NCBI GenBank assembly: GCA_051874735.1
Contig: JBJEGD010000026.1
Location: forward strand, 91,452 to 155,451
Origin: Candidatus Bruticola sp.
GTDB taxonomy: Bacteria; Vulcanimicrobiota; Xenobia; Xenobiales; Xenobiaceae
Reading direction: 5' to 3'
DNA length: 64,000 nucleotides
Within the stretch, counting starts at the first letter, position 1; every line of letters starts with the position of its first letter. This document shows, piece by piece, positions 26,270 through 42,941 of this stretch. A program made the position numbers and the translations under genes. Below the pieces are notes generated by a model, which did no database searches, had not been told where the DNA came from, and worked only from the letters and a program-made list of their open reading frames with translations.

Positions 26270-26339
26270 CTGCTTGTTGGGTTCTTTCTGTTCCAGCCTG
26301 ATCCTTGCTGAAGGGCAATTTCGCATGTTAACTACTGTA

Positions 26340-26886: not shown

Positions 26887-29800
26887 ATGAGGAATGCACT
26901 CGGACATGTCTTGTCAGCAGCAGTGCTTGTAGGTAGTTTTGGGGCTTCAGTTCCTGCCTTTGCAGATAGTCCATCCGGAAATGCTGCGGTCAATACTGCT
27001 GAGCCTTTACCGGCTGCAGTAAATATGGGATTCAGCTTGGAAGCCGATTCTGCGGCTGCTCCCTACGTACATGGTTCTCAGACATCCTCTTTAACTAGTC
27101 AGACTGACAGTTGCGAGTACGTTCAGCCGCATATAATTCAGTTGGTAGCGACTGATAAAGGAGACACTGAGCTGGTTGATTCTGCGGCGATTGCTAGCGG
27201 TGCGGCAAACAGTAGCTGTTCGACTAGTGAACTTAGCACTTCAGAGAAAGATGCTACAGTTTCAACGTCTTCGGCTGTTTCTGCAGATGAGAGCAAAACT
27301 ATAAAAACAAAAACTAAGAGCTCAACTTCCGAACTAAAAAAAAGTAAAGCTAGGCTAAATAAGAGCAGAGCTGCGCGGCGTAAGAATAAAGTTAATTCTA
27401 CCGCCTTGGGAAAGCATTCTAGCCCTGAAAAGGTTGAATCTGCTGTTGCTAATTCTGATAATGGTGCGGTGGCAATAGATAGCAGCGAACCCATAAAAAG
27501 TAAGACTGAGTTTTCCGCTGAACTGTCAGATAAAACGGATCATGTTCAGACTTCCTCCAGCAGTGAACCTGCTGTCGAGGCTAAAGCCGCTTCTTCTGTT
27601 GAGCAAGAGTCTGTGCCAGTATCTACGTACTCCGCCAGCAAAAACAACGGTGATAACGTTTCTTCCGCTCTTGAAGAGAATAGCGCTGCTGCAGAACAAA
27701 AAGTTGCTCCTGCCGCCGATGAAACAAAAAGCCAGGTGGCAGATGAGGGTACGAAAAAGGCTGCAGCTTCGATCTCTCCTATTTTTAGCGGTACGGTTGA
27801 GGCTATAACTGATTCATCTTTGCGTATTTTCGGTATAGGTGCCAATGGTGAACCGCTTAGCCTCGATTTTATTGTCGATGCTAATAGTCAGATGGCTGAG
27901 GGGATAAAAATAGGCGACAGTTTATCTGTTTATTATGAAGTTTCTGAAAGCGGTGGTTTCAGAGTAACTTCGGCTAGGTATCTATCAGGTGAAGCTCCCA
28001 AGAATGTTTTCCCCGGAGATATCCCTTCTGAACTGCTCGACAATAATGATGTAACTGCAAAAGACGAGACTGATACTACCAACGAAGCGGATATACCTAA
28101 GGTCGTCAGTATTGAGGTTGAGGGCAATAAAACCGTTTCTTCAGAGGAAATACTGCAGATTATTTCCACCCGTATCGGTGACCCTTTGTTAGAACCGCGT
28201 ATCCGCCGCGATATGCAGGCTATCTACGACAGTGGATATTACACTGATGTACGTTTAGATACACGCTACACTTCAGATGGCGTCCGTGTGATCTTCCGGG
28301 TTTTGGAAAATCCTGTAGTTGATGAAATAGCTATCGAGGGTAATAGCGTAGTCCCTAGCGAAAAGCTTCGCTCTCTTATGCAACTTGAAACGGGTAAAGT
28401 GCTCAATACTCGTACTTTGCAAAATGATCTACAATCAATCAACAAATATTACAACGAAGATTTAGGCTATACTATTAGTCCTTCCCACGTTACCAAACTC
28501 GATTTTAATAGCGGTAAACTTACGTTTACCTTAGTTGATGGCATTGTAGTTAAAGAAGTTAAGGTTGAGGGGGTTACCGTTTTCCCTCAAGACCAGATCG
28601 CTTCTATGATCACGCTCAAGCCGGGCGATCTGTTTAATCGTAATACTCTGCGCGATGATACAGAAAAAATTTCTGCTCTCTACGATGAAAAACAGTACAT
28701 ATTAGATACTATTAAACCTTCGGTTGATGTCGAAACTGGTGTAGTTACGGTCAGTGTTGTTGAAGCCGTACTTCAGGAAATTAAGCTGGCTTGGACTGGC
28801 ACTAGTGCTACTAAGCACCGTACCAAAGACGACACTGTGCTGCGCAATATCCGTACTAAGCCTGGCGAGGTGATGCGTCGCGATCGCATACAAAAAGATT
28901 TGGAACGTCTTAATAACTTAGGTCTTTTCAAAAAAGTAGAGCCTGAGGTCGAGCCGGGATCTGCGCCAGGTCAAGCCGTTTTAGTTTTAAATATTGAAGA
29001 ACAGAAAACTGGTTTAGCTACGGTCGGTGTCGGTTATGCTGGAGGCGGATCGGGAGCTGTTCGCCCTGGTATAACTGGAGCGATTTCTTATTCTGAGCGC
29101 AACTTATTCGGAGAAGGTAAGCAGTTTTCCATAAACTTGCAGCGAGGTGCTCAGATCGGTGCGTATAGTATTTCTTATTACGATCCAGCCATTAACTCTG
29201 CTCAAGATTCTATTGGCGTATCTGCTTACTATAACAGCGTAGACGACTTGGAACAGCAGGTGACCGGAGCTGATTATGGCACTTACGCTTATTACGATCA
29301 GGAAGTGTACGGCGCCACTGTTACTTACGGCCATCCTTTCTCCGATGACCTTCGCGGTTTTGTCACTTTGCGTCATGAAACTATAAATTTAACTATGTCT
29401 GGTAAATCTCTGTATGTACCAGTTGGCTTGGGTAAAGGTGATTTGAACGCTATTGGTTTGTCTACTTTATATGACACTCGCGATGACGTCTTCAGCCCTC
29501 ACAAAGGTAGTTATGCTAATGTGGCCCTTACTTTTGCTGGTTTTGGGGGAGACTATAGTTACAATAAATTTGTTGTAGAAGGACGCCACTATGTGCCCTT
29601 AACTAAGCGATCTACTTTGGCTTTGCGCGGTATGTACGGAACTGTGGGCAATGGGGCTCCCGCGTCTGAATATTTTTATGCTGGCGGTACTGACACTTTG
29701 CGTGGCTATCAAGATAACTCAATGTTCGGAAACAAAGTTGTCCTTCTGAATGCTGAATACCGTTTCCCCATTGGAAATATTAAGATGCTCAGCGGCGCTG

Positions 29801-29979
29801 TGTTTGTTGACGCCGGCAATGCCTGGATCTCCGGCTACAAGTCGAGTGAACTGTATACCGATGCTGGTGTTGGTCTGCGCATAGTATTTCCTAACCTCGG
29901 TTTGGGTGTTATTCGTATCGATTATGCTTTCGGCAAAGATGGATCCCGCTCCAGTATAGGTATAGGTCAGTCATTCTAG
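26887..29979 (+). CDS. bamA: outer membrane protein assembly factor BamA (Omp85) with an about 400-aa low-complexity N-terminal extension
   Basis: GGAGG RBS and a signal peptide. POTRA-like units begin IEVEGNKTV, IAIEGNSVV, VKVEGVTVF and IKLAWTG. The C-terminal barrel has RGY, VFVDAGNAW and a terminal GIGQSF (C-terminal Phe). Confidence 0.9.
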   Translation: MRNALGHVLSAAVLVGSFGASVPAFADSPSGNAAVNTAEPLPAAVNMGFSLEADSAAAPYVHGSQTSSLTSQTDSCEYVQPHIIQLVATDKGDTELVDSAAIASGAANSSCSTSELSTSEKDATVSTSSAVSADESKTIKTKTKSSTSELKKSKARLNKSRAARRKNKVNSTALGKHSSPEKVESAVANSDNGAVAIDSSEPIKSKTEFSAELSDKTDHVQTSSSSEPAVEAKAASSVEQESVPVSTYSASKNNGDNVSSALEENSAAAEQKVAPAADETKSQVADEGTKKAAASISPIFSGTVEAITDSSLRIFGIGANGEPLSLDFIVDANSQMAEGIKIGDSLSVYYEVSESGGFRVTSARYLSGEAPKNVFPGDIPSELLDNNDVTAKDETDTTNEADIPKVVSIEVEGNKTVSSEEILQIISTRIGDPLLEPRIRRDMQAIYDSGYYTDVRLDTRYTSDGVRVIFRVLENPVVDEIAIEGNSVVPSEKLRSLMQLETGKVLNTRTLQNDLQSINKYYNEDLGYTISPSHVTKLDFNSGKLTFTLVDGIVVKEVKVEGVTVFPQDQIASMITLKPGDLFNRNTLRDDTEKISALYDEKQYILDTIKPSVDVETGVVTVSVVEAVLQEIKLAWTGTSATKHRTKDDTVLRNIRTKPGEVMRRDRIQKDLERLNNLGLFKKVEPEVEPGSAPGQAVLVLNIEEQKTGLATVGVGYAGGGSGAVRPGITGAISYSERNLFGEGKQFSINLQRGAQIGAYSISYYDPAINSAQDSIGVSAYYNSVDDLEQQVTGADYGTYAYYDQEVYGATVTYGHPFSDDLRGFVTLRHETINLTMSGKSLYVPVGLGKGDLNAIGLSTLYDTRDDVFSPHKGSYANVALTFAGFGGDYSYNKFVVEGRHYVPLTKRSTLALRGMYGTVGNGAPASEYFYAGGTDTLRGYQDNSMFGNKVVLLNAEYRFPIGNIKMLSGAVFVDAGNAWISGYKSSELYTDAGVGLRIVFPNLGLGVIRIDYAFGKDGSRSSIGIGQSF

Positions 29980-30175: not shown

Positions 30176-31171
30176 ATGTCTGAAGTCAATTTGAGTAAAT
30201 CTGCTGACAACACTGCAGATGAAGCTGTTAGTGAGTCAGCTACTCCTTCTGGCGGAAACAAGAAAATTGTTGGCGTAGTTGTTGCTGTAGCTGTTTTAAT
30301 AATTATCGGTATTGGAACTTGGATGTTCCTCAGTCCTAGCGGTATGATGTCTTCTCCTGCTAAAAAAGTAGGCTGTATAGACGCTTCAGCTATTTATGCT
30401 CTCGATGAGTTTAAAAACGCTGAAAAGCAGATCGCTGATTTTGCTGAAGCTAAAAACAAAGAATTTGAAAAAGCTGTCAGTGAAAAAAATGGAAAAGAAG
30501 GTTCTGAGACTGAGCTCCAGCTGCTTTATAACAAGCTTCAAGGTGAAGTTGAGGTTAACCGTAACAAAATTATTCTTCCTTTGAATAATCGTGTCTCTGC
30601 AGCTATCGCTTCCGTATCTGCTGGAAAAGGGCTTAATGTAGTCCTGGATAAGCGCGTAGTCGTATGTGGAGTTCCCGATATCACTGAAGATGTAAAAAAA
30701 CTTTTTCAACAAAAAGGCGAGCTGAAAGTTCCTTCTGAGGAAGATACTAGCGATTCTCCGGTGGCTTATTTCGATCAGGGAATAGTTCGCAAATTGAAAG
30801 TGTTCGGTGAAGTTGATATCCGCTTGAGTCAAGCCCGCGCTGACATGATGCGTGAGTATGAGAAAAAAGCTCCCAGTCTTTCAGCTTCAGAGCGTGAGGC
30901 CCTGCAGCGTGAGATGTCCGCTCGTTTTGAGGCTATTAGTCAGCAACAGTATGCTCCTCTCTATCAGAAGGTCAATAATTCTGTAAATAAAGTTGCCAAA
31001 GATTTAGGCATTTCGCTGGTACTGAACAAACAGACTGTGATGTACGGCGGGCGCAATATTACTGATGAAGTTATTGATACTTTTAATGCTAGTCTGAACA
31101 CAGATTCATCTTCTGCTGAAGCTGCAGACAGCAAAGCTGCAGACTCTAAGAATACTGAAGCTGCTAAGTAA
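30176..31171 (+). CDS. membrane-anchored protein with two Skp/OmpH-like halves
   Basis: AAGGAGG RBS and TM segment IVGVVVAVAVLIIIGIGTWMFL. There are two units, each ending with ...GLNVVLDKRVVVCGVPDITEDV or ...GISLVLNKQTVMYGGRNITDEVI, the typical OmpH C-terminal pattern. Confidence 0.65.
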   Translation: MSEVNLSKSADNTADEAVSESATPSGGNKKIVGVVVAVAVLIIIGIGTWMFLSPSGMMSSPAKKVGCIDASAIYALDEFKNAEKQIADFAEAKNKEFEKAVSEKNGKEGSETELQLLYNKLQGEVEVNRNKIILPLNNRVSAAIASVSAGKGLNVVLDKRVVVCGVPDITEDVKKLFQQKGELKVPSEEDTSDSPVAYFDQGIVRKLKVFGEVDIRLSQARADMMREYEKKAPSLSASEREALQREMSARFEAISQQQYAPLYQKVNNSVNKVAKDLGISLVLNKQTVMYGGRNITDEVIDTFNASLNTDSSSAEAADSKAADSKNTEAAK

Positions 31172-31184
31172 TTGAGGTGTTTTT

Positions 31185-32624
31185 ATGCAGTTTTTTTCTG
31201 TCCCTAAATTCAAAAGTACAGGCGTATGGCTGGGGGTCGGCAGCATTCTAGTCGGCGCCGCTGTGGCTGTTCAAGTAGGCTTAGCTGAGGTTGCCTGTGC
31301 TGAAGGGACTGAGCCGAAAAAATCTGCTGCTCTTGATAAGGCTGATGATAAGTTCACTGAGTTAGCTGTAGTTGACTTCGATAAGCTGTTGAAAGATCGT
31401 CCCGATTATGAGCGCATCAATCAACTCGATGAACAGATTCGTTTACTGCAACAGGAACTAGATTTTTTGCCTTTAGCTGACCACAGGCGTAAAGTAGATT
31501 CTGGACGTAAACGTATGGAACGCGAGGTTGAAAAGGCTCGCAATGAACTTCAAGCTGAGTCTGAGCGTATTGGACGGGAATTGAAAAATTTTCGCAATGC
31601 ACTTTCTTCTCAGCTTGAACGGGAAAGTAAAGCTCTCAATGAACATTACCAAAATGTTTTACGTCAGCGTATTGCCGCTCTGACTCCCAAAGCTCAGCCG
31701 CAGGTTCCTGAAGATGTTCGCAAGCGTATGGATAGTTTCCTTAGCGATTTGGCTGGAGTGCGTCAGCAGCGACTCTCTGCTAAGCGTTTAGAACTTGAGC
31801 GCCTTATGCAGAATAATTTGGAAAGTGCCAGAGCTTCCATGGATGAGCGCTTAGCAGCCTACGACAATTCTCTTATGGAAGAGAATCAAGCGCAGCGCGT
31901 TAATCTTCAGCTTCAGTTGCAAACGGCAGCTAATGCTGAAGAAGAGTCGTCCATTCAAGATAAGCTGAGTGCTTTGAGTGATGAAGAAACGGCTAAAAAA
32001 GCGGCCAAACGCGATGAACTTAGTGCTGAGTATCAAGCGCTTGAAGCTTCAGAGAGAGCTAATGTTAACTCAAAAATGAAAGCTTTTGAAGATTCTTTAG
32101 ATAAGGAAACTTCTGCTAAAGCGGCTGCTGAACGGGAACGTCTCTTAAAGACGGTGTCAGTTCCTTCTCCCCAGGCTAACAAAGCTGATATTGAGGCCCA
32201 GATCGAAAAGATTAAGGCGACTATCAACGCTGAAATGGAAGCGAAGAAGGCTTCCATGACGGCGGCCATGCAGCAAAAGGCTGAGGAAGCCCAGCGCAAT
32301 ATGGAAAAAAAGCAGGCTGAACTAGAAAAGCGTCTCATGGCCACTCAGAAGCAGCTTGAAGCGATGGTTAAAAATTCCCAAAATGATGTCAGCGATGAAA
32401 CTCGCAAAAAGATGGATGACATTAAGGCCAAGATAGAAGATCTGCAGAAACAGCGCACTGAATTGCACGATTCCATGGCGGCTGATCTGCGCAAGGTTAT
32501 CAGTAAGATAGCTGCAGAGCAGGAAGGGCAGCCTTCTGTAATAGGAACTTATGTAATGAATATTGACTGTTTGGATCTTACCGACAAGACTATGATCGCT
32601 TTGGAGAAAGAGGACCAGCATTAG
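31185..32624 (+). CDS. 479-aa coiled-coil protein with Skp/OmpH-like termini
   Basis: N-terminal hydrophobic segment. An OmpH-like start (LAVVDFDKLLKDRPDYERI) and end (VIGTYVMNIDCLDLTDKTM) are separated by about 380 aa of heptad-rich E/K/Q/A sequence. Confidence 0.55.
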   Translation: MQFFSVPKFKSTGVWLGVGSILVGAAVAVQVGLAEVACAEGTEPKKSAALDKADDKFTELAVVDFDKLLKDRPDYERINQLDEQIRLLQQELDFLPLADHRRKVDSGRKRMEREVEKARNELQAESERIGRELKNFRNALSSQLERESKALNEHYQNVLRQRIAALTPKAQPQVPEDVRKRMDSFLSDLAGVRQQRLSAKRLELERLMQNNLESARASMDERLAAYDNSLMEENQAQRVNLQLQLQTAANAEEESSIQDKLSALSDEETAKKAAKRDELSAEYQALEASERANVNSKMKAFEDSLDKETSAKAAAERERLLKTVSVPSPQANKADIEAQIEKIKATINAEMEAKKASMTAAMQQKAEEAQRNMEKKQAELEKRLMATQKQLEAMVKNSQNDVSDETRKKMDDIKAKIEDLQKQRTELHDSMAADLRKVISKIAAEQEGQPSVIGTYVMNIDCLDLTDKTMIALEKEDQH

Positions 32625-32633
32625 GAGGTCGCA

Positions 32634-33194
32634 GTGAAGAGAATTTTTTGGTGCGGAGCAGTTTGTGCGTTACTCACTGTCGGTGTTTTGTTGGCGTCAG
32701 GATGCAATACCCAGAATCAAAAAGCTATTATTCGCACTGGAACTATAAATAGCACTGTGGTGCTTCAGCAGGATGACAAGTATCAAGAATTATCGCGTCA
32801 GTACTTCGCTGAGCGCGTTAAAGCCAGTCAAGAAGTGCAGCGAATCGTCAAAGAAAATTCTGATGCCAACGGTGTTGTGAGTGATAAGTCTATTTATGAT
32901 AAGCTTATGAAAATTCAGAACGATGTAGAATCGAAGTGGCAGAAACGCACCGCCGACTATATAGATGCTAAAATGAAGAGTATGGAAGAAGCTGCTCAGA
33001 AGGTTGCAGTGGACAGCAAGCTCGATATCATTTTAATCGATTCCGATGATGTACCTACTGTAGAGTATGGCGGCCACGACGTTACAGCTAATGTTCTAGC
33101 TGCTATGCCCGGGTTCGCTGGCAAGTCTGAAGCTGAAAGTACTAGTGCTGAGACTGCAGCTGATTCTAAGCAGCCTGTGAATAACAGCAAATAG
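32634..33194 (+). CDS. Skp/OmpH-like lipoprotein
   Basis: GTG follows AGGAGG. Lipobox LLASGC. It has a coiled-coil middle and an LDIILIDSDDVPTVEYGGHDVTANVL end. Confidence 0.6.
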   Translation: MKRIFWCGAVCALLTVGVLLASGCNTQNQKAIIRTGTINSTVVLQQDDKYQELSRQYFAERVKASQEVQRIVKENSDANGVVSDKSIYDKLMKIQNDVESKWQKRTADYIDAKMKSMEEAAQKVAVDSKLDIILIDSDDVPTVEYGGHDVTANVLAAMPGFAGKSEAESTSAETAADSKQPVNNSK

Positions 33195-33214
33195 AAATGC
33201 GGAGGATAAACAGG

Positions 33215-33688
33215 TTGAAGCATTCAAAGTTTATTAACTGTTTGATTTTAACGGCTGTAGGCGCCGCTCTGCTGCTGTCAGGGGGAGGATGCGCTAAGCG
33301 TTCACTTAAAGTAGGGGTGGTTAATACTGAGAGAATTATCAGGGAAAATCCCAAGTACATGGAATTGAATGTGGTTTTGTCTGATGAGCGGAACAAGTTG
33401 TTCTCGCAAATTCCCAGTAATGTCAACAGCATGTCTGGAGCACAAAAGAAAGCTTTGCAGGAAAAATTAGCTAAAGAGGCTGCTGAGCGTTCCAGTAAAT
33501 TTGACAAGCTTTACAATGAAAGCATGAAAAGCCTGCGTGAAGATATAAAAAAACAGGCTTCAGAAGTTGCTAAAGATAAAAATATCGACTTAGTGGTAGT
33601 TAATACCATAAATTATCCAGTAGTGCTTTATACCAGCGGCGATAATGTCACTTTAGATATTCTTCTCAAAATGGACGGAGCAAAATAA
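33215..33688 (+). CDS. Skp/OmpH-family lipoprotein
   Basis: TTG at 33215 lies 9 nt after GGAGG; the track ATG at 33197 has no RBS. Lipobox LLLSGGGC. It has KVGVVNTERIIRENPKY ... KNIDLVVVNTINYPVVLYTSGDNVTLDIL, a classical OmpH pattern. Confidence 0.75.
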   Translation: MKHSKFINCLILTAVGAALLLSGGGCAKRSLKVGVVNTERIIRENPKYMELNVVLSDERNKLFSQIPSNVNSMSGAQKKALQEKLAKEAAERSSKFDKLYNESMKSLREDIKKQASEVAKDKNIDLVVVNTINYPVVLYTSGDNVTLDILLKMDGAK

Positions 33689-34402
33689 ATGGAACAGGGA
33701 CTCATACATACTAGCGCTTGTATTGATGTCTTCGCCTCTCTTGGAGAGGGATGCCGAGTCGGAGCTATGGCTGTTATTGAAAGTGGAGCCCAAATTGGCT
33801 GCGGAGCTGAAATCGGTCCTAAAGTTTATATCGGACGCAACGTTTCTATCGGTGAAAGAGCTGTTATAAAGTGCGGTGCTGTTATTATGGATGGCGTTGT
33901 TGTTGGCAGAGAAGCGGTAGTCGAGTCGGGGGCTGTTTTGGGAATGGATGGCTTTGGATATGTTTTTGACGGACAAAGCCATCGTAAAATTCAGCAAATA
34001 GGCAATGTTGTCATTGGGCAGGGAGCGAAAATTGGCGCTTGTTCCTGTATAGACAGGGCCGCTTCTGCTTCAACGGTCGTTGGCGATCATACTGAAATAG
34101 GTCATATGGTGATGGTCGGTCATAACAGCAAGATTGGCAGCGGGTGTCGCATTGGTGATCAGAGCGGTTTAACTGGTTCCTCTCTGGTCGGTAACGATTG
34201 TATCATCGGCTCTCAGTGTGGTATAGGTGTGCGTGTTGAACTTGGCGATGGCTGTGTGTTGCTAGATCGAGCCACGGCTATGCGCAAATATGAGCCTGGG
34301 CAGGTTCTGGCCGGACATCCAGGACGACCGGTGGCGGAGGTTCGCCGTGCAGAAGCGGCTTTTAATTTGCTGCCTAAACTTTTAAAAGATTATATTGAGT
34401 AG
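33689..34402 (+). CDS. lpxD: UDP-3-O-acylglucosamine N-acyltransferase, short form (LbH plus C-terminal helix only)
   Basis: It aligns without gaps to the E. coli LpxD catalytic region: IDRAASASTVVGDHTEIGHMVMVGHNSKIG...LTGSS versus [30 protein letters not shown]...MAGSL. The His of the HN motif is present. At 237 aa it has no room for the about 100-aa N-terminal domain, because the upstream gene ends at 33688. Confidence 0.75.
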   Translation: MEQGLIHTSACIDVFASLGEGCRVGAMAVIESGAQIGCGAEIGPKVYIGRNVSIGERAVIKCGAVIMDGVVVGREAVVESGAVLGMDGFGYVFDGQSHRKIQQIGNVVIGQGAKIGACSCIDRAASASTVVGDHTEIGHMVMVGHNSKIGSGCRIGDQSGLTGSSLVGNDCIIGSQCGIGVRVELGDGCVLLDRATAMRKYEPGQVLAGHPGRPVAEVRRAEAAFNLLPKLLKDYIE

Positions 34403-34406
34403 TTCG

Positions 34407-34448
34407 TACCGGTCTTGGGGGCGGTTTTCTAGTCGGGAAGACCGGTAG
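34407..34448 (+). terminator. hairpin after short lpxD (weak T tail)
   Basis: taccggtctt pairs with aagaccggta, a 10-bp stem with a 22-nt loop. Confidence 0.45.
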
Positions 34449-34613
34449 ATCTTGTTGTTAGGGCAGATTCGGAGCAACTCATTTCCATTTTATCAATATT
34501 TATGTCAAGGCGCCTCAATTAGTCTGCAGTTTTGAAATTTGCAGCAGCACAGTTTAGGGCGCTATTTTTCTGTGTAACGCAGAGAGCGATGAATCTGTCG
34601 GAGTTGGGTTTTT

Positions 34614-36458
34614 ATGAGAAAATATAATTTATGGGCCTTAATTTTGGCTTTTGTAGTCTTTTATTCCGCTGCTCTGTCATCTGCCTGGGCTGCTGATGTA
34701 ATGCTGGGAGGCCAGGTTATCTTTCGTATAAATGATGAGGATCAAGCAAAAAAAATATCCCAAAAAATTGAAGCTATGTTGCAGAGGGGGGCTTCTTCGT
34801 CTTCAATTAAAGTCGTACGTAAAGATATTGCTGTAGCCTCGGAGGGGCAAGATAAGCAAGATAAAGATGAAGGTAGCAAGGGAGGGGCTAAAGCGAAAAA
34901 ATCTGTTTATAAAATATTTTGGGGAAGTGAATTAGTCATTGAAGTGAATGACGAAATTGCCAAGCAGAATGCTTCTTCTCCAGAAGCTTTAGCTAATTTA
35001 TGGGCCTCCAATATGCGCAATGTCGTCGATATTGGCCTGTTGAATGTTGATGTTGCTAGAGTCGTTTTACCTATAGAGGCTGATAAGGTTATTTACGCTT
35101 CTGGTTTGGCAACCGGTCCTTTGAGTGCTGAAGAGACTTCAGGTATCGTTGATATTGATATCGATCAGGAAAACGGCCTTATTAAGATAAAAGGGCGCAG
35201 GGTTGGAAAGTCGTCTATCGTTATTAGCAAAGGGGTTGCCTCCGTTTCCGTTTTTGTGCAGGTGAAAGATTGGGCCGGCAAACTTCCTCAGACGGTTAAT
35301 GTTGAAGTAACTGGCAATCCTGCACAGATTGATGACGTTTCCCAGGCGGTTATGCTTTCCATAGCGGCTAATACTTTCGTTCAGCCAGGCTGCAGTGTTT
35401 ATGTTGATGATTCCAACTTTAAACCGATTCCGGTGAGTAAAGGCGACAGTATGCGCTTAAGCGTGCCTGTGGGTATAAATGCTTCGGAAGATTATTTTGC
35501 GCTTCGCGGCAATGTTAATGTTGTAGTTAGCAATATAGAAGCTCCTGTAGTTGAGCAGAATCTGCTTCTAGTCAGCAATCGGCCGGAGCGTGTCAGCACA
35601 GATGGAGTATTAATGAAGTATAACTTCAAGAGACGTGAGCCCAGTCGTCTTATGTTCTCCCATCTTAATGCTTCCGAAAAGAATCGTTATTTGTGGATAA
35701 ATTTAGCTAATTTAAATGACGAACCGATAAAGATTGTTATCAGTCGCACTTCTGCTGGACCTGAGCGCAGCGAAATTTATGTCGGCCAAACGGCTGCCAA
35801 GCGCTTTTTAGAAAATTTGGCCAGTCGTTCCGGCTATATCATTACTCTTCCGCCCAATTCTGCTTTAGAGCTCTGTTCTTATGTGATGCGTCCTGAAGCT
35901 TTGGTAAGTGGATTTATAAATTTCCAAATTTTGGAAGGTACTAGCGCGACCGTTGAAGTGCGCAGTTCATTAAATCCTAATGCTAACGATGGACGTCCTC
36001 TGCCAGAAATAGGGGCCCCTTTTAATCCTTTCAAAATACATCCTCACGGAGTTTTTGCTCAGCCTTATTTTGAAAATGAAGGTGAATTTGTTATAGGTGG
36101 CAGTCCTTTAACTTTTCGTTATGGTGAGAGTCCTTGGCTGATTGATTTTGAAACTGGGCTGCCCAACACTGGCAATTTCGGGGTTTTGTATAAATCTTTG
36201 GTAGAATTAAAAAATCCTACTAAGCGTACAAAAACTGTGGGACTTTACTTTACGCCTTTGTCCGGCCCTGGCGGTGCTAACTTCCTGATAGGCAATTCTG
36301 TTTATCAGGCAGTTTTCCGCAAAAAAGGTGATGAAGTACTTGTAGCTAAAATCGAACTCTCGCCAGAGTCTAGCAGTATAATTGAAATTGTCACTTTACC
36401 TGAGGCGACTTCCTGTTATCCTGCCCAGTATGAATTGCGTGAACTGGACGGGCGCTGA
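34614..36458 (+). CDS. secreted 614-aa protein of unknown function
   Basis: Signal peptide MRKYNLWALILAFVVFYSAALSSAWA. It has its own terminator. No family recognised. Confidence 0.7.
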   Translation: MRKYNLWALILAFVVFYSAALSSAWAADVMLGGQVIFRINDEDQAKKISQKIEAMLQRGASSSSIKVVRKDIAVASEGQDKQDKDEGSKGGAKAKKSVYKIFWGSELVIEVNDEIAKQNASSPEALANLWASNMRNVVDIGLLNVDVARVVLPIEADKVIYASGLATGPLSAEETSGIVDIDIDQENGLIKIKGRRVGKSSIVISKGVASVSVFVQVKDWAGKLPQTVNVEVTGNPAQIDDVSQAVMLSIAANTFVQPGCSVYVDDSNFKPIPVSKGDSMRLSVPVGINASEDYFALRGNVNVVVSNIEAPVVEQNLLLVSNRPERVSTDGVLMKYNFKRREPSRLMFSHLNASEKNRYLWINLANLNDEPIKIVISRTSAGPERSEIYVGQTAAKRFLENLASRSGYIITLPPNSALELCSYVMRPEALVSGFINFQILEGTSATVEVRSSLNPNANDGRPLPEIGAPFNPFKIHPHGVFAQPYFENEGEFVIGGSPLTFRYGESPWLIDFETGLPNTGNFGVLYKSLVELKNPTKRTKTVGLYFTPLSGPGGANFLIGNSVYQAVFRKKGDEVLVAKIELSPESSSIIEIVTLPEATSCYPAQYELRELDGR

Positions 36459-36493: not shown

Positions 36494-36531
36494 GCCCGTT
36501 CTGCCGTTGAGGCGGCTCACGGGTTTTTTTT
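36494..36531 (+). terminator. rho-independent terminator
   Basis: gcccgt..(gccg/cggc inner stem)..acgggt followed by T8. Confidence 0.8.
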
Positions 36532-36660: not shown

Positions 36661-37500
36661 ATGTGCAGAGCGCAGCGTACTTTGGCGAAAGAAGTTTCCT
36701 TCGAAGGAGTAGGGATTCATACTGGGAGAGCGAGTCACCTAACTATTAAGCCGGCTCCTGTCGATCACGGTCTCGTTTTTCTTAGTTCTGGAGAGTATAT
36801 CCCTGCTACCTATGAGTACGTTATTTCTACAAAGCGCTCTACAACGATTGGTAAGGGACAGGTCGCGGTAAATACTATCGAGCATTTAATGGCCGCTTTT
36901 GGAGGTCTTTCTGTGGATAATGCTCTTATAGAGATAGAAGGGCCGGAAGTTCCTATTTTAGACGGTTCTGCTTTGCCTTTTTGTCAGGCTATGGAAGAAG
37001 CAGGTATAGTTAATATCAAAGGCAGTGAAGTAGAAGATTATTATCTGAGCGAGCCCATTTTTGCTGCAGAAGGGGACAGTTTAGTTTTGGCTATGCCCGA
37101 TTCCCAATATAATCTTGAAGGAGCTGTCAGCTACAACAGTCCTCAAGTAGGTATTCAGCGATATCGTTACTGCGGATATGACAACTTTGTGACTCATATA
37201 GCTCCTGCTCGTACTTTTGGTTTTTGGTCTGAGGTAAAAACTCTCTTAGAAAACGGATTAGGGCAAGGTGGCGATCTGTCTAATGCTTTAATTTATGATC
37301 GTCCTGGTTTTAATGCTGCAGAAAATCAGCGTTTTGTCAATGAACCGGTGCGTCACAAAATTTTAGATTTAGCTGGTGATATTTGTCTGTTAGGTCGTCC
37401 GCTGTGTGCTTTTGTTTTGGCCGTTCGGGCTGGTCATAAATTGCATGTAGAATTCGTTCGCAAAATCGCTGAGGAGATGAAAAAAAATGCTGAATACTAA
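36661..37500 (+). CDS. lpxC: UDP-3-O-acyl-GlcNAc deacetylase
   Basis: RTLAKEVSFEGVGIHTG, TIEHLMAA, EVPILDGSA and HKILDLAGD motifs. Confidence 0.9.
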   Translation: MCRAQRTLAKEVSFEGVGIHTGRASHLTIKPAPVDHGLVFLSSGEYIPATYEYVISTKRSTTIGKGQVAVNTIEHLMAAFGGLSVDNALIEIEGPEVPILDGSALPFCQAMEEAGIVNIKGSEVEDYYLSEPIFAAEGDSLVLAMPDSQYNLEGAVSYNSPQVGIQRYRYCGYDNFVTHIAPARTFGFWSEVKTLLENGLGQGGDLSNALIYDRPGFNAAENQRFVNEPVRHKILDLAGDICLLGRPLCAFVLAVRAGHKLHVEFVRKIAEEMKKNAEY

Positions 37501-37912: not shown

Positions 37913-38028
37913 AAGGCGAACGCACGACCGTTTGCGGCTAGCTGTAGGAAATTTGCCATATACAGACGAAATTATAAACCGTTTTGTGTTCGCTTTTGCA
38001 TAGAGACAAAAATTGGAGGATAAGCATT

Positions 38029-38967
38029 ATGAAGCCGATTAAAGTTGGCGTGGTCGGCATTGGTAGTATGGGGAAAAACCATGCTCGAGTGTGCGCCGAA
38101 CTACCTCAAATTGAACTTACAGGCATGGTGGATCTCGATGAAGCCAGAGTCGCCCCTTTAGCTCAGCAGTACGGCACACAGTATTATAAAGATTATAAGA
38201 GTCTCTATGGCAAAATCGACGCTGTAGTTATTGTTGCACCTACACCGCTTCACTATCAAATCGCTCAAGATTTTTTGGAACAGGGCGTTCATGTCTTGGT
38301 AGAAAAGCCCATTACTGTAGAGGTAAGCGAGGCTAAACGGTTAGTGACTTCCGCTAAGGAAAAAAATCTTGTTCTGCAGGTAGGTCATTTGGAGCGTTTC
38401 AATCCAGCCGTAATAAAGCTTAAGCAGATGGTGAGCAAACCTGTGTTAATAGAATGCCACCGCCTTTCTGGGCCTACTACTCGCAGTCTCGATGTCGGTA
38501 TTATTTGGGATTTAATGATCCACGATTTTGATATACTTCTCAGTTTATATAAATCTCCAGTAGCCGAAATCCATGCTATGGGGACTTCTATCTATTCTAA
38601 ATTTGAAGATGTAGCTCACGTGCAAATGCGGTTTGAATGTGGGGCTGTAGCCAGTTTGGTAGCTAGTCGCAATTCCGGAGAAAGGAAGCGCAGTCTCAAA
38701 ATTACTGAAGATACCGGACGAGTTTTGTCTCTCGATTTTATTAACCAAACTTTAGTTATTTCTCGTCCTGGCCCCGATGGGCGTCCCCTAGATTTGGAGC
38801 CAGTTCACATCGAGAAAGAGGAACCTCTACGTTTGGAACTCAGCAATTTTGCAGATTGTGTGATTAATCACAAGGAACCTGTTGTATCCGGTGAGGATGG
38901 CAAGCGAGCTTTGGAATTAGCTGTTCACGTTTTGGAGAATATGCAAAAAATTACGCTTTCTAAGTAA
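38029..38967 (+). CDS. Gfo/Idh/MocA-family NAD(P)-dependent oxidoreductase (GnnA-like position)
   Basis: ATG at 38029 follows GGAGG. Rossmann N-terminus IKVGVVGIGSMGKNHA and an EKP motif (LVEKPIT). It lies between fabZ and lpxA. Confidence 0.85.
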   Translation: MKPIKVGVVGIGSMGKNHARVCAELPQIELTGMVDLDEARVAPLAQQYGTQYYKDYKSLYGKIDAVVIVAPTPLHYQIAQDFLEQGVHVLVEKPITVEVSEAKRLVTSAKEKNLVLQVGHLERFNPAVIKLKQMVSKPVLIECHRLSGPTTRSLDVGIIWDLMIHDFDILLSLYKSPVAEIHAMGTSIYSKFEDVAHVQMRFECGAVASLVASRNSGERKRSLKITEDTGRVLSLDFINQTLVISRPGPDGRPLDLEPVHIEKEEPLRLELSNFADCVINHKEPVVSGEDGKRALELAVHVLENMQKITLSK

Positions 38968-39838: not shown

Positions 39839-42286
39839 TTGACTGAAAATAGTCAGCAACAATCATCTGCTTATCCTCAGTTGACGGTTGCGATAATCGC
39901 CATAGAGCCTTCTGCCGATCTTCATGGAAGCAATTTGGCTAGGGCTCTTTTGGCGATTAATCCGCATCTAAAACTGGTCGGCGTAGGCGGATCGCATATG
40001 GCCGCGTCGGGAGTCAGTCTGTGGTTAAGGACCACAGACATGGCAGTTATTGGTCCCGGCGGGGCTATTGCTCGTTTGCCTAAATATATATGTTACTATT
40101 TGTACGTGCGCAGGCATTTGCTTAAGGAACATCCTCACCTCAGCATTTTAATAGACTGCCCCGCCGTTAACATGCGTTATGCTGGTCTTTTGACTCGCTA
40201 TGGCTATCATTCTGTTTATTACTTTCCCCCTTCTGCCTGGACAACCAGCGAAGTGCGTCTTAGACAGATTTTTAGCCGCACAGATAGGGTAATTTGTACC
40301 TTCTTGAGCAATGCCGAAAATTATCGCCGTCTGGGTATGGATGTAGATTTCTTCGGCCATCCTCTTATCGATATGCCCGAGTTAGGAATTTCTGCAGAAG
40401 AAGCTAAAAACAAGTTGGGGCTGGTAGGCGAAAATATTTTGGCTTTACTTCCGGGCAGTCGTGCTTCAGAAATAAAGTATCTATTGCCGATTTTTTTAGA
40501 AATAGTTGCTAAGTTGCATCAAGAAATAGAAAATTTGCAGGTACTTGTACCTTGTGCAACTCAGGCGCTTCGCAGGCAAATAGTTGCCTATATGGGGGAT
40601 AGGTTCCCTTATGTGCGTGTTTTAAATGGGCAGTCTCGTTTAGCCCTTTTAGCTTGTCGAGCAGCGTTGATGAGCTCTGGCACAGCTAGCCTGGAAGCTG
40701 CGATATTAGGCGCCCCAATGGTTCTGTCTTATAAACTTTGTCCCTTCGATGCTGTTATAGGTAAGTTCCTGATTTGGAGTGGTTTATTAAAAATTGAGCA
40801 TATCGGGTTGCCCAGTTTGGTCGCTGGACATCGCATTGTTCCAGAGTTTGTTCAAGATGAAGTTTCACCTGAAAATATTATCCCTCATTTGCGCAATTTT
40901 ATGCGAGATACTCCTGAGCGGTGCCAAATAAAACAAGATCTTTTAGATATGAGGAAGTCCATGGGCGCTCCTGGAGTAATTACCAAGATAGCCTCTTCTT
41001 TATATAGTCGCATTGAGAGCAGTGCTGCTGAAAGGATGGCTGAACCTTTCGACATTGTTATAACATCTAATTCTCCTGGAGAGGTGTCCACGTGGGTGCG
41101 ACGCACTGTTGCTCAGTTGGAGGTTAAAAACAAAGGGCAGTTTAGAGTTATAGTAGCGTTAGTTCCATGTCCTTATGCTTCCGGAGCTGAAGCTGAAGTC
41201 GCCGCTTCTCTGCCAGGCGTTTCCATTGTTCTGACGCCTAGTCAGACTGTGCGTTTAATGTGCGGCATGTTCAACGATTTTGAGCTGCGTAAAAAGGGAG
41301 TAGTAGTATTTTTAGGCGGTGATCTTATTCACGCTAAAATTTTGGCTTGGCGTTTAAAATATCGCTCTATAGCCTATGCAGCTAGATACAACAGGCTAAT
41401 CTACTATTTTGATAAAGTCGCTGCTTCAGATATTTCACTGGCCTCTGAATTATTAGAAGCTGGAGTTAATGAAGTTGTTAATATAGGTAATTTAAGTATT
41501 GATGGGGTTATTTCTGAAGTTGATAGGGAAGCAGCTGATAAAGTATCCCGTAGAACTGGCTTGAAGATTGGCATTTTCCCAGGATCGCGTTTTCTGCATA
41601 CTAAGATCGCTCTAGGAGTGTTTTTGCGTGTAGCTGCTCTAATAAAAACGCGTCACCCTGAGGTTGAATTTGTCCTTTCTGTATCGCCTTTTCTTTCCCC
41701 AGCTCGGCTGGAATCGGCACTTTGTAATCCTTTTAGTTTGGGGCTTCCGGTAGCTAAGGGTAAATTGCTCAGTGCTGATCGCATTGCAGTTGAGTGTATG
41801 TATGAAGATGAACAGGCTGCAGGACGCAGTTTTGAAGTTGAAGTTTTGTGGGGCCATCCTTATCAAGCTATTGCAGAAATAGATATGGCACTTACCATTC
41901 CGGGAACGAATACTGGAGAGTTGGGGTGTTGCGGCAAACCTATGGTAGTAGGACTTTCTGCTGATGCTTCCCTGCCCAGAGGAGGTTTGGGCGGCTTATT
42001 TGAAAGGATGCCAGTTTTATCAAAACTTAAGAGTTATTTGCGCTTGCGTTCTTATGCGCGTCACGGTTTCGCTGCGATCCCTAACCGTATTGCTTCTAGA
42101 GCTATCGTTCCTGAAGTTTTAGTAAAAAAAGATACGTCTGTGCTGGCCCAGCCTATTTTAGAGTGGATTGAAACTCCTGAGAAGTACGCCCGTGTTTCCC
42201 AAGATTTAAAAGACACTATGAGAACGACAGAGGGAGCGGGCAAGCGCATGGCTGAGTTGATCCTGGGTTTGGTTGATTCTAAATAA
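39839..42286 (+). CDS. lpxB: lipid-A-disaccharide synthase fused to a second LpxB-related GT-B module
   Basis: TTG start. Residues about 15-395 look like LpxB (IEPSADLHG..., YYFPPSAW, FFGHPLID, LLPGSRASE, GTASLEAAILGAPMV). Residues about 400-815 form a second module (ITSNSPGEVS, IFPGSRFLH, PGTNTGELGCCGKPMVV). Confidence 0.8.
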   Translation: MTENSQQQSSAYPQLTVAIIAIEPSADLHGSNLARALLAINPHLKLVGVGGSHMAASGVSLWLRTTDMAVIGPGGAIARLPKYICYYLYVRRHLLKEHPHLSILIDCPAVNMRYAGLLTRYGYHSVYYFPPSAWTTSEVRLRQIFSRTDRVICTFLSNAENYRRLGMDVDFFGHPLIDMPELGISAEEAKNKLGLVGENILALLPGSRASEIKYLLPIFLEIVAKLHQEIENLQVLVPCATQALRRQIVAYMGDRFPYVRVLNGQSRLALLACRAALMSSGTASLEAAILGAPMVLSYKLCPFDAVIGKFLIWSGLLKIEHIGLPSLVAGHRIVPEFVQDEVSPENIIPHLRNFMRDTPERCQIKQDLLDMRKSMGAPGVITKIASSLYSRIESSAAERMAEPFDIVITSNSPGEVSTWVRRTVAQLEVKNKGQFRVIVALVPCPYASGAEAEVAASLPGVSIVLTPSQTVRLMCGMFNDFELRKKGVVVFLGGDLIHAKILAWRLKYRSIAYAARYNRLIYYFDKVAASDISLASELLEAGVNEVVNIGNLSIDGVISEVDREAADKVSRRTGLKIGIFPGSRFLHTKIALGVFLRVAALIKTRHPEVEFVLSVSPFLSPARLESALCNPFSLGLPVAKGKLLSADRIAVECMYEDEQAAGRSFEVEVLWGHPYQAIAEIDMALTIPGTNTGELGCCGKPMVVGLSADASLPRGGLGGLFERMPVLSKLKSYLRLRSYARHGFAAIPNRIASRAIVPEVLVKKDTSVLAQPILEWIETPEKYARVSQDLKDTMRTTEGAGKRMAELILGLVDSK

Positions 42287-42287
42287 T

Positions 42288-42941
42288 ATGAAAATTCCTA
42301 ATGAAAATTGCCAAAATATTGCTACTCCTTTTATTTTCAAGTGGCGAGGCTTGATTATGGCAGTAGTGACGGCTATCATACTGGCTGCTGCCAAGCCAAC
42401 TTTAGTTACCTGCTGCTGGGGAATTGGCTTTGTACTTTTAGGAGAGCTGTTGCGTTCATGGGCTTTGGGCTGGACTGGAGAACATACACGTAGTCAGGAA
42501 TTAATGGCGTCTTTTTTAGTTACTGGCGGTCCTTATAAATACATACGCAATCCACTGTACTTAGGCAATATTTTAAACGGATTTGGGGTTATGGTTGCTG
42601 CTTCTGGAGCTATGTCGTATTTGGGAACGGCTGCTTTGTGGGCTTTTGGTCTTCTATCTCTTTATATGGTTTATGCTTCATGTATAATCGCTGAAGAAGC
42701 TTTCTTGGCTATGCGTTTTGGTGATCTCTTCTTCCGCTACAGAGCAGTTACGCCGACCATTGTACCGCGTTGGGGAGATTATCTCGATTTTATAAGCAGT
42801 TTTTTCAATTTCTCTTCCTGTACAGATGTTCAATATGAAGGGAGAGGCTTCTTCTCTTGGCAATCTTTAAAATTTGAATATAGTACTTGGGGATGGATAA
42901 TTGCTGTTTGGTCTTGTTTATTTATAAAAGCTTTCATGTAA
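42288..42941 (+). CDS. ICMT/Ste14-like membrane methyltransferase family protein
   Basis: The ATG at 42288 begins immediately after the lpxB stop. The protein is multi-TM and has GPYKYIRNPLYLGNIL, the family signature. Confidence 0.7.
   Translation: MKIPNENCQNIATPFIFKWRGLIMAVVTAIILAAAKPTLVTCCWGIGFVLLGELLRSWALGWTGEHTRSQELMASFLVTGGPYKYIRNPLYLGNILNGFGVMVAASGAMSYLGTAALWAFGLLSLYMVYASCIIAEEAFLAMRFGDLFFRYRAVTPTIVPRWGDYLDFISSFFNFSSCTDVQYEGRGFFSWQSLKFEYSTWGWIIAVWSCLFIKAFM

What the first reader, a model, noticed from the sequence alone, without database searches (positions are those of the whole stretch)
34614..36458. Orphan 614-aa secreted protein inserted between lpxD and lpxC
Seen: a large ORF with a clean signal peptide, a GGAG RBS and its own strong terminator (36494-36531) interrupts the otherwise classical bamA-skp-lpxD-lpxC-fabZ-lpxA-lpxB order. 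I recognise no family motif. The N-terminal third has short beta-rich segments, and the C-terminal 300 aa is a distinct globular region. Inference: the position suggests an envelope or OM-biogenesis role, possibly lineage-specific.
Basis: inference. Interest (0 to 1): 0.52.

Follow-up and report, generated by a model that had tools for sequence, protein, structure and literature searches.

The report
Conserved exported protein in lipid-A operon
This is a real, exported 614-residue protein of unknown function. It is not an orphan: it belongs to a large uncharacterised family of double-membraned Terrabacteria, and throughout its own lineage it sits between the lipid A genes lpxD and lpxC, which suggests an unstudied role in building the outer membrane.

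Summary
ORF 34614-36458 (+) is real, with a GGAG ribosome-binding site, a Sec signal peptide and its own terminator at 36494-36531.

"Orphan" and "inserted" do not hold. The protein has at least 114 close homologs, and a profile search finds 1,428 representative clusters. Named members come from Vulcanimicrobiota (Eremiobacterota), Armatimonadota and Abditibacteriota. The best match (91% identity) is from Candidatus Bruticola, class Xenobia.

In 10 of 10 independent relative loci, down to 31% identity, the gene lies between lpxD and lpxC. It usually overlaps both neighbours. Armatimonadota homologs and a Vulcanimicrobiota paralog are not linked to lpx genes.

Function is unknown. My best inference, at low confidence, is a periplasmic binder or processor of an envelope glycan that assists outer-membrane or LPS assembly. 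It is moderately interesting as an unstudied, lineage-fixed member of a core envelope operon.

The parts
34407..34447 (+). Hairpin just after the lpxD-like stop codon, with a weak U-tract. It may be a partial terminator or attenuator in front of the gene.
   Evidence: RNA fold. The consensus scan flags its inner part at 34432-34446.
34600..34603 (+). GGAG ribosome-binding site, 10 nt upstream of the ATG.
   Evidence: Read directly from the sequence.
34614..36458 (+). Coding sequence of the 614-aa exported protein. The mature form is about 64 kDa with pI 5.5.
34614..34691 (+). Sec (SPase I) signal peptide, aa 1-26, with cleavage after AWA.
   Evidence: It is the only hydrophobic segment. A hydrophobic N-terminus is present in 52/57 orthologs and none has a lipobox.
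34692..35033 (+). Domain D1, alpha/beta, aa 27-140. W103 and W130 are invariant among orthologs.
   Evidence: AF2 model and alignment A1.
34833..34895 (+). Low-complexity Lys/Asp/Gly-rich insertion in D1, aa 74-94. It is disordered and occurs only in the closest relatives.
   Evidence: pLDDT below 50 for residues 78-85. The region is gapped in most of A1 and shows 6% identity.
35040..35273 (+). Domain D2, an Ig-like beta-sandwich of Big_2 / pilus-N type, aa 143-220.
35292..35534 (+). Domain D3, a small beta-alpha-beta-beta-beta domain, aa 227-307.
   Evidence: AF2 model.
35562..36455 (+). Domain D4, a C-terminal double beta-sandwich (D4a 317-452, D4b 485-614) with one helix at 387-404. It is the most conserved part and is distantly DUF3370-like.
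36018..36056 (+). Clade-specific hyper-conserved loop PFNPFKIHPHGVF, aa 469-481, lying between D4a and D4b.
   Evidence: Invariant in A1. The relaxed form PFxPFx[IV]HPxG is present in all lpx-linked members checked. pLDDT is low.
36132..36182 (+). Hyper-conserved loop PWLIDFETGLPNTGNFG, aa 507-523. The GN[FY]G core is conserved across the whole superfamily and is the stretch that matches DUF3370.
36494..36531 (+). Intrinsic terminator of the gene.
   Evidence: dG -21.5 kcal/mol, z -3.95.
33689..34402 (+). Upstream neighbour: an LpxD-like hexapeptide acyltransferase, short form of 237 aa.
   Evidence: NF002060 scores 207 bits, equal to its cut-off, and aligns to profile positions 103-332 of 345.
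36661..37500 (+). Downstream neighbour: LpxC.
   Evidence: PF03331 at 280.7 bits and TIGR00325 at 224.8 bits, above its cut-off.

Best explanation
Shown: the gene encodes a genuine Sec-exported soluble protein of about 64 kDa with four domains (alpha/beta D1, Ig-like D2, alpha/beta D3, C-terminal double beta-sandwich D4). It belongs to a large uncharacterised family of roughly 600-aa proteins found in Vulcanimicrobiota (Eremiobacterota), Armatimonadota and Abditibacteriota. Within its own clade (class Xenobia and related unnamed lineages) it is a fixed member of the bamA - skp x3-4 - lpxD - X - lpxC - fabZ - (gnnA-like or DegT) - lpxA (- lpxB) operon. It is normally translationally coupled to lpxD and lpxC.

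Inferred: after export to the periplasm, the protein uses the conserved aromatic and polar loops at the cleft between the two halves of D4 to bind an envelope glycan. The residues involved are SNRPE 321-325, R345/H350/N352, PFNPFxIHPxG 469-479, PWLID 507-511, PNTGNFG 517-523 and PEASxYP 596-603. The most plausible ligand is nascent LPS or lipid A-core, or else peptidoglycan. The three N-terminal domains would then act as a spacer or docking module. On this reading it is a non-catalytic accessory factor of outer-membrane or LPS assembly, made in step with BamA, Skp and the lipid A enzymes. The identity and context statements are firm. The mechanism is a low-confidence inference.
For: Real gene and family:
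- 114 homologs at 31-91% identity.
- 1,428 representative clusters with E <= 1e-3, 513 with E <= 1e-30, most aligned over their full length.
- Named members: Ca. Bruticola, Xenobia, Eremiobacterota and Vulcanimicrobiota; Fimbriimonadales and Chthonomonas; Abditibacteriota.

Export:
- Signal peptide, no other hydrophobic segment and no lipobox.

Operon fixation:
- lpxD-X-lpxC in L001, L002/L003, L004, L087, L088, L089, L092 and L093, with overlapping or abutting reading frames.

Envelope type:
- The phylum is diderm with an LPS outer membrane (PMC9758169).

Binding-type fold:

Functional site:
- D4 is the most conserved region (50-52%, and 72% for the loop, against 32-38% for D1-D3).
- The invariant residues are aromatic or polar and sit in loops that AF2 leaves at low confidence. 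That pattern is typical of ligand-ordered sites.
Against: - No experimental data exist for any family member. Literature searches for DUF3370 and PF11850 returned nothing.
- Outside this clade the family is not lpx-linked. That covers 47 Armatimonadota loci, the paralogs at L085, L086 and L091, and P0134 at L090. The ancestral function need not concern lipid A.
- The density of invariant polar residues (E325, R345, H350, H476, D511, N521, Y602) would suit an enzyme equally well.
- I could not inspect model coordinates, so clustering of these residues in a cleft is inferred from strand topology only.
- In this window the gene is separated from its neighbours by 211 and 202 nt and has its own terminator. 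Here it may be regulated apart from the lpx genes.
Confidence: 0.4

Rival explanations
1. It is a periplasmic enzyme. The conserved polar constellation in D4 would form an active site in a jelly-roll scaffold, and the enzyme would modify or trim LPS/lipid A or peptidoglycan. Candidate activities are a deacylase, phosphatase, glycosidase or beta-elimination lyase.
For: - Conservation is extreme in short loop motifs, with invariant E325, R345, H350, N352, H476, D511, N518, N521 and Y602 among orthologs.
- N322, E325, R345, H350, N366, N521 and Y602 persist across the superfamily at 20-30% identity.
- The residue before N322 is Ser or Cys throughout (pattern LWY[CS]NxPE).
- The HPH motif in the closest clade is metal-site-like.
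- The gene is co-operonic with lipid A enzymes.
Against: - No match to any catalytic family in Pfam, NCBIfam or PDB sequences.
- The second His of HPH is replaced by K or R in other lpx-linked members.
- D330 is not conserved in the superfamily, so no Ser-His-Asp triad holds family-wide.
Confidence: 0.25
2. It is a protein-protein accessory or scaffold of the outer-membrane assembly machinery. Examples are a lineage-specific partner of BamA/Skp, or a tether between outer membrane and peptidoglycan, standing in for the BamCDE/LptE-type lipoproteins that Terrabacteria diderms lack.
For: - It lies in the same operon as bamA and several skp/ompH genes.
- Diderm Terrabacteria are reported to lack BamBCDE homologs (PMC5007114).
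- The multi-domain Ig-containing architecture suits a periplasm-spanning scaffold.
- The family is confined to Terrabacteria diderm phyla.
Against: - It has no lipobox or membrane anchor.
- A BamB-like propeller is already encoded next to bamA.
- Armatimonadota homologs are not near bamA as a rule.
Confidence: 0.15
3. It is a passenger gene: an exported protein with a function unrelated to lipid A or the outer membrane, for example a nutrient- or surface-binding protein. Its operon position would be a frozen historical accident.
For: - Family members in Armatimonadota, the Vulcanimicrobiota paralog (subgroup C) and P0134 sit in unrelated contexts. These include a TPR protein, glycogen phosphorylase, DUF6438 and DUF885.
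- In this window the gene has its own terminator and long intergenic spacers.
Against: - The exact slot is retained in 10/10 loci down to 31% identity.
- Overlapping reading frames with both neighbours across deep divergence argue for selection on co-expression.
Confidence: 0.17
4. It is a recent insertion or a true orphan: a horizontally acquired or de novo ORF that interrupts the operon in this genome only.
For: Only the local picture supports this: own RBS, own terminator, 200-nt spacers and no family name.
Against: - Homologs sit at the same position in all relatives examined.
- Composition is uniform.
- The family is very large.
- There are no phage or defence-system matches.
Confidence: 0.02

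Closest known systems
Pfam DUF3370 (PF11850), protein of unknown function
   Same: The start of D4 (SNRPE region) and the GN[FY]G loop align collinearly to profile positions about 10-47 and 295-332 of 422. Of the orthologs, 29/57 hit at E <= 0.01, as do 10/34 superfamily members; the best E-value is 2.4e-8.
   Different: Every score inspected individually is below the 25-bit gathering cut-off (17.9 bits here, 18.4-24.7 in the nine relatives scanned singly). Only short stretches align. This protein has three additional N-terminal domains. DUF3370 itself has no known function, and no paper mentions it.
Uncharacterised ~600-aa 'Ig-like domain-containing protein' family of Armatimonadota and Abditibacteriota (e.g. 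MBQ7525983.1; Fimbriimonadales loci L005-L084)
   Same: Same four-domain architecture, aligned over the full length. Shared features are the signal peptide and the invariant motifs SNxPE, R..H.N, SG, GN[FY]G and P..S.YP.
   Different: Identity is only 20-30%. These proteins lack the PFxPFxIHPxG and PWLID loops, are not adjacent to lpx genes, and are often followed by a cytoplasmic TPR protein.
Big_2 / bacterial Ig-like domains of S-layer and surface proteins (SbsC, Sap, LigA, intimin D00-D0)
   Different: Only one roughly 80-residue domain matches. There is no SLH, autotransporter or secretin module, and the rest of the protein is unrelated.
Ligand-binding beta-jelly-roll modules (SIDT2 ectodomain, botulinum HA70, ColG collagen-binding/PPC domain, CBM6/CBM35, Cry toxin domain III)
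   Different: Sequence identity is 6-13% and only about a third of D4 is covered, so this is a generic fold-level resemblance. None of these modules is known from lipid A operons.
Lineage-specific hypothetical genes in the outer-membrane gene cluster of diderm Firmicutes (Antunes et al. 2016, PMC5007114)
   Same: The concept matches: conserved unknown genes embedded among bamA, skp and lpx genes in Terrabacteria diderms.
   Different: No homolog of this family was found attributed reliably to Firmicutes. The two 'Firmicutes bacterium' labels are on unclassified MAGs. The paper describes no gene between lpxD and lpxC.

Membership tests
Pfam DUF3370 (PF11850) | Whole-protein score at or above the gathering cut-off of 25 bits | tested here: not met
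   17.9 bits, E = 0.0015. The nine relatives scored individually reach 18.4-24.7 bits, all below the cut-off.
Pfam DUF3370 (PF11850) | Alignment across most of the 422-position profile | tested here: not met
   Only profile positions 299-331 align here. In relatives only positions about 10-47 or 294-332 align.
Uncharacterised Vulcanimicrobiota/Armatimonadota/Abditibacteriota ~600-aa exported protein family (defined here) | Full-length collinear alignment of D1-D4 with family members | tested here: met
   The profile search aligns most hits over profile positions about 5-580 of 582. See also alignments A1 and A2.
Uncharacterised Vulcanimicrobiota/Armatimonadota/Abditibacteriota ~600-aa exported protein family (defined here) | Invariant motifs SNxPE, R..[HS]H.N, SG, GN[FY]G and P..S.YP | tested here: met
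   All are present in the window protein: S321-E325, R345-N352, S432-G433, G520-G523, P596-P603.
Uncharacterised Vulcanimicrobiota/Armatimonadota/Abditibacteriota ~600-aa exported protein family (defined here) | N-terminal Sec signal peptide and no lipobox | tested here: met
   A hydrophobic N-terminus is present in 52/57, 33/34 and 13/14 members of A1, A2 and A3.
lpx-linked ortholog clade of that family | Position between lpxD and lpxC, downstream of bamA and the skp genes | tested here: met
   The window and 10/10 relatives' loci.
lpx-linked ortholog clade of that family | Loop motifs PFxPFx[IV]HPxG and PW/YL[IL]D | tested here: met
   Residues 469-479 and 507-511. Shared by all lpx-linked members compared and absent from unlinked ones.
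Big_2 bacterial Ig-like domain (PF02368) | Pfam sequence match in domain D2 | tested here: not met
   The window protein has no Big_2 hit. Two distant family members do, at 7.6e-8.
Big_2 bacterial Ig-like domain (PF02368) | Ig-like beta-sandwich fold | tested here: met
Raetz-pathway lipid A enzymes (LpxA/C/D/B/H/K) | Cytoplasmic or inner-leaflet location and a match to an Lpx family model | tested here: not met
   The protein carries an export signal and has no Lpx hit in Pfam or NCBIfam.
Lpt beta-jellyroll proteins (LptA / LptC / LptD N-terminal domain, OstA) | OstA-type sequence or fold match | tested here: not met
BAM accessory lipoproteins (BamB-E) | Lipobox plus a BamB/C/D/E family match | tested here: not met
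   No lipobox and no such Pfam or NCBIfam hit.
S-layer proteins (SbsC / Sap / EA1 type) | Cell-wall anchoring module (SLH or equivalent) plus an array of assembly domains | tested here: not met
   The resemblance is limited to one Ig-like domain, and there is no SLH hit.
Any glycan-binding module (CBM-like) | Demonstrated binding of a carbohydrate ligand | not testable with these tools
   Only a weak fold resemblance is available. Biochemistry is needed.

The most novel reading that the evidence does not exclude
The protein is a previously unrecognised periplasmic component of outer-membrane or LPS biogenesis, specific to Terrabacteria diderms (Vulcanimicrobiota and their allies). It would either handle lipid A/LPS on the periplasmic side or partner BamA/Skp, filling a role that Proteobacteria assign to unrelated lipoproteins. 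Its DUF3370-like double jelly-roll would be a new ligand-binding or catalytic module.
Probability: 0.25. Interest if true: 0.7.

Novelty: new variant of a known kind. Interest (0 to 1): 0.42.

Why it matters
Outer-membrane biogenesis is understood almost entirely from Proteobacteria. Terrabacteria diderms lack most of the accessory lipoproteins of the BAM and Lpt machines, and what replaces them is unknown.

This exported protein is hard-wired between lpxD and lpxC, next to bamA and skp, across a whole lineage, which makes it a concrete candidate for such a lineage-specific factor. It would also give a first functional foothold for the DUF3370-like fold.

If the protein turns out to be a passenger, the finding is just one more conserved hypothetical protein.

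Tried and rejected
1. Foreign insertion: composition is flat, GC 0.42-0.46. There are no PHROGs or PADLOC hits. Rejected.
2. Regulatory RNA in the two 200-nt spacers: no Rfam hit at E <= 1.
3. PDB by sequence, with the single protein and with the profile: nothing meaningful.
6. The TPR gene downstream in 35/47 Armatimonadota loci as a BamD-like lipoprotein: it has no signal peptide or lipobox and no counterpart in the window. Rejected.
7. The strict HPH motif as a marker of lpx linkage, or as a metal site: P0120 and P0132 lack the second His yet are lpx-linked. Only the relaxed motif holds, and it may simply be a clade marker.
8. A family-wide Ser/Cys-His-Asp triad: D330 is not conserved. Rejected.
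9. Internal duplication of D4a and D4b, or of D1 and D3: hhalign probability at most 3%.
10. Paralog in the window: none.
11. The search for related loci with the very divergent alignment A2 failed for lack of a conserved stretch.
12. The word-indexed searches with A2 and with P0134 returned few hits.
13. Cluster look-ups gave few taxon names, so the intermediate lpx-linked clade remains taxonomically unlabelled.
14. Literature: nothing on DUF3370 or PF11850, and no description of a gene between lpxD and lpxC in Terrabacteria clusters.
Full report
OBSERVATION

The ORF at 34614-36458 (+) is present exactly as described: 614 aa with an ATG start. A GGAG lies at 34600-34603, 10 nt upstream. The N-terminus, MRKYNLWALILAFVVFYSAALSSAWA|AD, is a textbook SPase I signal peptide. 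It is the only hydrophobic stretch in the protein and there is no lipobox. The hairpin plus U-run at 36494-36531 folds at -21.5 kcal/mol, with z = -3.95 and 0 of 200 shuffles folding as well. A second hairpin sits just after the upstream stop codon, at 34407-34447.

The neighbours are an LpxD-like acyltransferase (33689-34402) and LpxC (36661-37500). Upstream lie BamA and four OmpH/Skp-like genes. Downstream lie fabZ, a GFO/IDH/MocA gene, lpxA and lpxB. No curated family passes its threshold. The only hit is Pfam DUF3370 at 17.9 bits against a cut-off of 25. NCBIfam, PADLOC and PHROGs give nothing.

NOT AN ORPHAN

The word-indexed search found 114 homologs at 31-91% identity over the full length. 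The best (91%) is from Candidatus Bruticola sp. Others are labelled Xenobia, Eremiobacterota or Vulcanimicrobiota. Ca. Bruticola belongs to Vulcanimicrobiota, class Xenobia.

An exhaustive profile search of 1.84 billion representatives found 1,428 clusters with E <= 1e-3 and 513 with E <= 1e-30. Most are about 600 aa and align end to end. One distant subgroup maps to 80 genome loci, nearly all titled Armatimonadota, mostly Fimbriimonadales or Chthonomonas; a few titles name other taxa. Another subgroup belongs to Abditibacteriota, where NCBI calls it 'Ig-like domain-containing protein'. A third is a paralog within Vulcanimicrobiota: MAG ACLFQV carries both P0132 and P0274.

Superfamily-wide invariants are SNxPE, R..H.N, SG, GN[FY]G and P..S.YP. 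DUF3370 is hit sub-threshold by 29/57 orthologs and 10/34 distant members. The matched stretches are collinear, at the start of D4 and at the GN[FY]G loop. That makes a distant relationship between D4 and DUF3370 likely, but formal membership is not met.

NOT AN INSERTION

In every locus of the >=400-bit clade that I could fetch, the gene lies between the lpxD-like gene and lpxC, downstream of bamA and three or four skp-like genes. These loci are L001, L002/L003, L004, L087, L088, L089, L092 and L093, spanning 50% down to 31% identity to the window protein. The reading frames typically overlap or abut by 1-20 nt. Base composition across the window region is uniform.

The linkage is specific to this clade:
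- Forty-seven full-flank Armatimonadota loci have no lpx genes within 8 kb. Their commonest neighbour is a cytoplasmic TPR protein.
- The Vulcanimicrobiota paralog sits next to DUF6438.
- P0134 sits in an unrelated context.

The window genome is unusual within the clade. It has 211-nt and 202-nt spacers and a dedicated terminator around the gene.

ANATOMY

AlphaFold2 with the 57-sequence alignment gives mean pLDDT 88.9 and pTM 0.72. The model contains:
- Signal peptide, residues 1-26.
- D1, alpha/beta, residues 27-140. It carries a disordered Lys/Asp/Gly-rich insertion at 74-94 that only the closest relatives have.
- D2, an Ig-like sandwich, residues 143-220.
- D3, a beta-alpha-beta-beta-beta domain, residues 227-307.
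- D4, residues 317-614: two beta-sandwich halves joined by a long loop, with one helix at 387-404.

CONSERVATION

Among orthologs, D4 is the most conserved region. D4a is 52% identical and D4b 50%, against 32-38% for D1-D3. The peak is the D4a-D4b linker loop (residues 453-484, 72%) and the loop at 504-524. These loops carry PFNPFKIHPHGVF and PWLIDFETGLPNTGNFG, which are invariant across the 57 sequences, yet AF2 models them at pLDDT below 50.

At superfamily level the linker loop is the least conserved part, at 17%. The strict HPH form occurs in 116 of the proteins held. I first took it as a marker of lpx linkage, but P0120 and P0132 lack the second His and are still lpx-linked. The relaxed form PFxPFx[IV]HPxG fits all linked members and none of the unlinked ones. 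This may simply reflect common descent.

MECHANISM

What is shown: the protein is exported and soluble, has four domains, and in this clade is co-expressed with BamA, Skp and the lipid A enzymes. The organisms are diderm with LPS (PMC9758169).

What is inferred: the conserved aromatic and polar loops between the two jelly-roll halves form a ligand site. Because the nearest folds are binding modules and no catalytic family matches, I favour a non-catalytic binder of an envelope glycan (LPS/lipid A-core or peptidoglycan) that assists outer-membrane assembly. My confidence in the full statement is about 0.4, and most of that rests on the identity and context part.

The rivals are:
- A periplasmic enzyme acting on LPS or peptidoglycan (0.25). 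The number of invariant polar residues fits this equally well.
- A protein-protein accessory of BAM/Skp, or an outer-membrane tether (0.15).
- A functionally unrelated passenger (0.17). The unlinked contexts elsewhere in the family support it, but overlapping frames retained across deep divergence argue against it.
- A recent insertion or orphan (0.02), which is refuted.

COMPARISON AND NOVELTY

The closest named entity is DUF3370, which is itself uncharacterised and absent from the searchable literature. The protein does not qualify as a member of it. The closest real relatives are unnamed hypothetical or 'Ig-like domain-containing' proteins.

The published description of outer-membrane gene clusters in diderm Firmicutes notes hypothetical genes and the absence of BamBCDE, but nothing corresponding to this gene. 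I rate it a new variant of a known kind: a lineage-specific accessory gene in the well-known bamA-skp-lpx cluster, built from common beta-sandwich modules plus a poorly charted DUF3370-like domain.

Interest is moderate (0.42). A specialist would note it as a candidate Terrabacteria-specific envelope factor, but there is no functional evidence yet.

Noticed in passing
window 33689-34402 (+) and 45671-46654 (-): The lpxD-like gene next to the finding is a short form of 237 aa. It aligns only to positions 103-332 of the 345-position LpxD model, so it lacks the N-terminal UDP-binding domain. A second LpxD-like gene of 327 aa that does carry an N-terminal LpxD-domain match lies 9 kb downstream on the other strand. 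Short lpxD forms also occur in relatives (L002, L004, L088, L089), while L087 and L092 have full-length ones.
   Followed up: partly
window 37984-38967 (+); L092 11376-12473: A GFO/IDH/MocA oxidoreductase sits between fabZ and lpxA in the window and in eight of the relatives' loci (in L093 it follows a longer lpxC gene and no separate fabZ was called). Its best match is UDP-GlcNAc 3-dehydrogenase (275 bits, below the cut-off of 450). In L092 a DegT-family aminotransferase occupies that slot instead. Together these resemble GnnA/GnnB and hint at a 2,3-diamino-glucose lipid A backbone.
   Followed up: partly
window 42273-42941 (+): A PEMT/ICMT-type membrane methyltransferase lies right after lpxB. 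It has weak similarity to Leptospira LmtA, the lipid A 1-phosphate methyltransferase (42.7 bits against a cut-off of 325). A gene of this type occupies the same position in L001, L004, L088 and L089.
   Followed up: partly
window 39839-42286 (+): lpxB is an 815-aa fusion. Only residues about 15-383 match LpxB. In relatives the two halves are separate genes (L001, L004, L088, L089), while L002 has a single 734-aa product.
   Followed up: partly
window 26887-29979 (+): BamA is 1,030 aa, against 770-915 aa in relatives. The extra length is an N-terminal low-complexity extension of roughly 390 residues, rich in Ser, Ala, Glu and Lys, ahead of the POTRA domains.
   Followed up: no
window 24854-26326 (-): A PQQ-type beta-propeller with weak BamB similarity is encoded divergently upstream of bamA. 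A PQQ_2 gene is also found upstream of bamA in L001 and L002.
   Followed up: no
window 30176-33688 (+): Four consecutive OmpH/Skp-like genes lie between bamA and lpxD. One is a 479-aa coiled-coil-rich form with no clear Pfam hit. The set is conserved in relatives, with three or four copies.
   Followed up: no
window 34833-34895 (aa 74-94 of the protein): A Lys/Asp/Gly-rich low-complexity insertion in domain D1 is present only in the closest relatives and is predicted to be disordered.
   Followed up: partly
L008 9917-10807 and 34 other Armatimonadota loci: In 35 of 47 Armatimonadota loci the family gene is followed, on the same strand, by a TPR protein of about 290 aa without a signal peptide. 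Some genomes carry two family copies (L010 and L013; L016 and L019).
   Followed up: partly
L085 10167-11069; L091 9872-10705; L086 14102-15016: The Vulcanimicrobiota paralog (subgroup C) is followed by a DUF6438 protein. In L086 the pair is split by a Y1 transposase gene and an ankyrin-repeat gene.
   Followed up: no
L024, L027, L056, L061, L081: Several genome records carrying Fimbriimonadaceae-type family genes are titled as Methanoregulaceae archaeon, uncultured archaeon, Methyloversatilis, Synechococcus or Archangium. These are probably mis-binned or mislabelled MAG contigs. L024 mirrors L023, which is labelled Fimbriimonadaceae.
   Followed up: no
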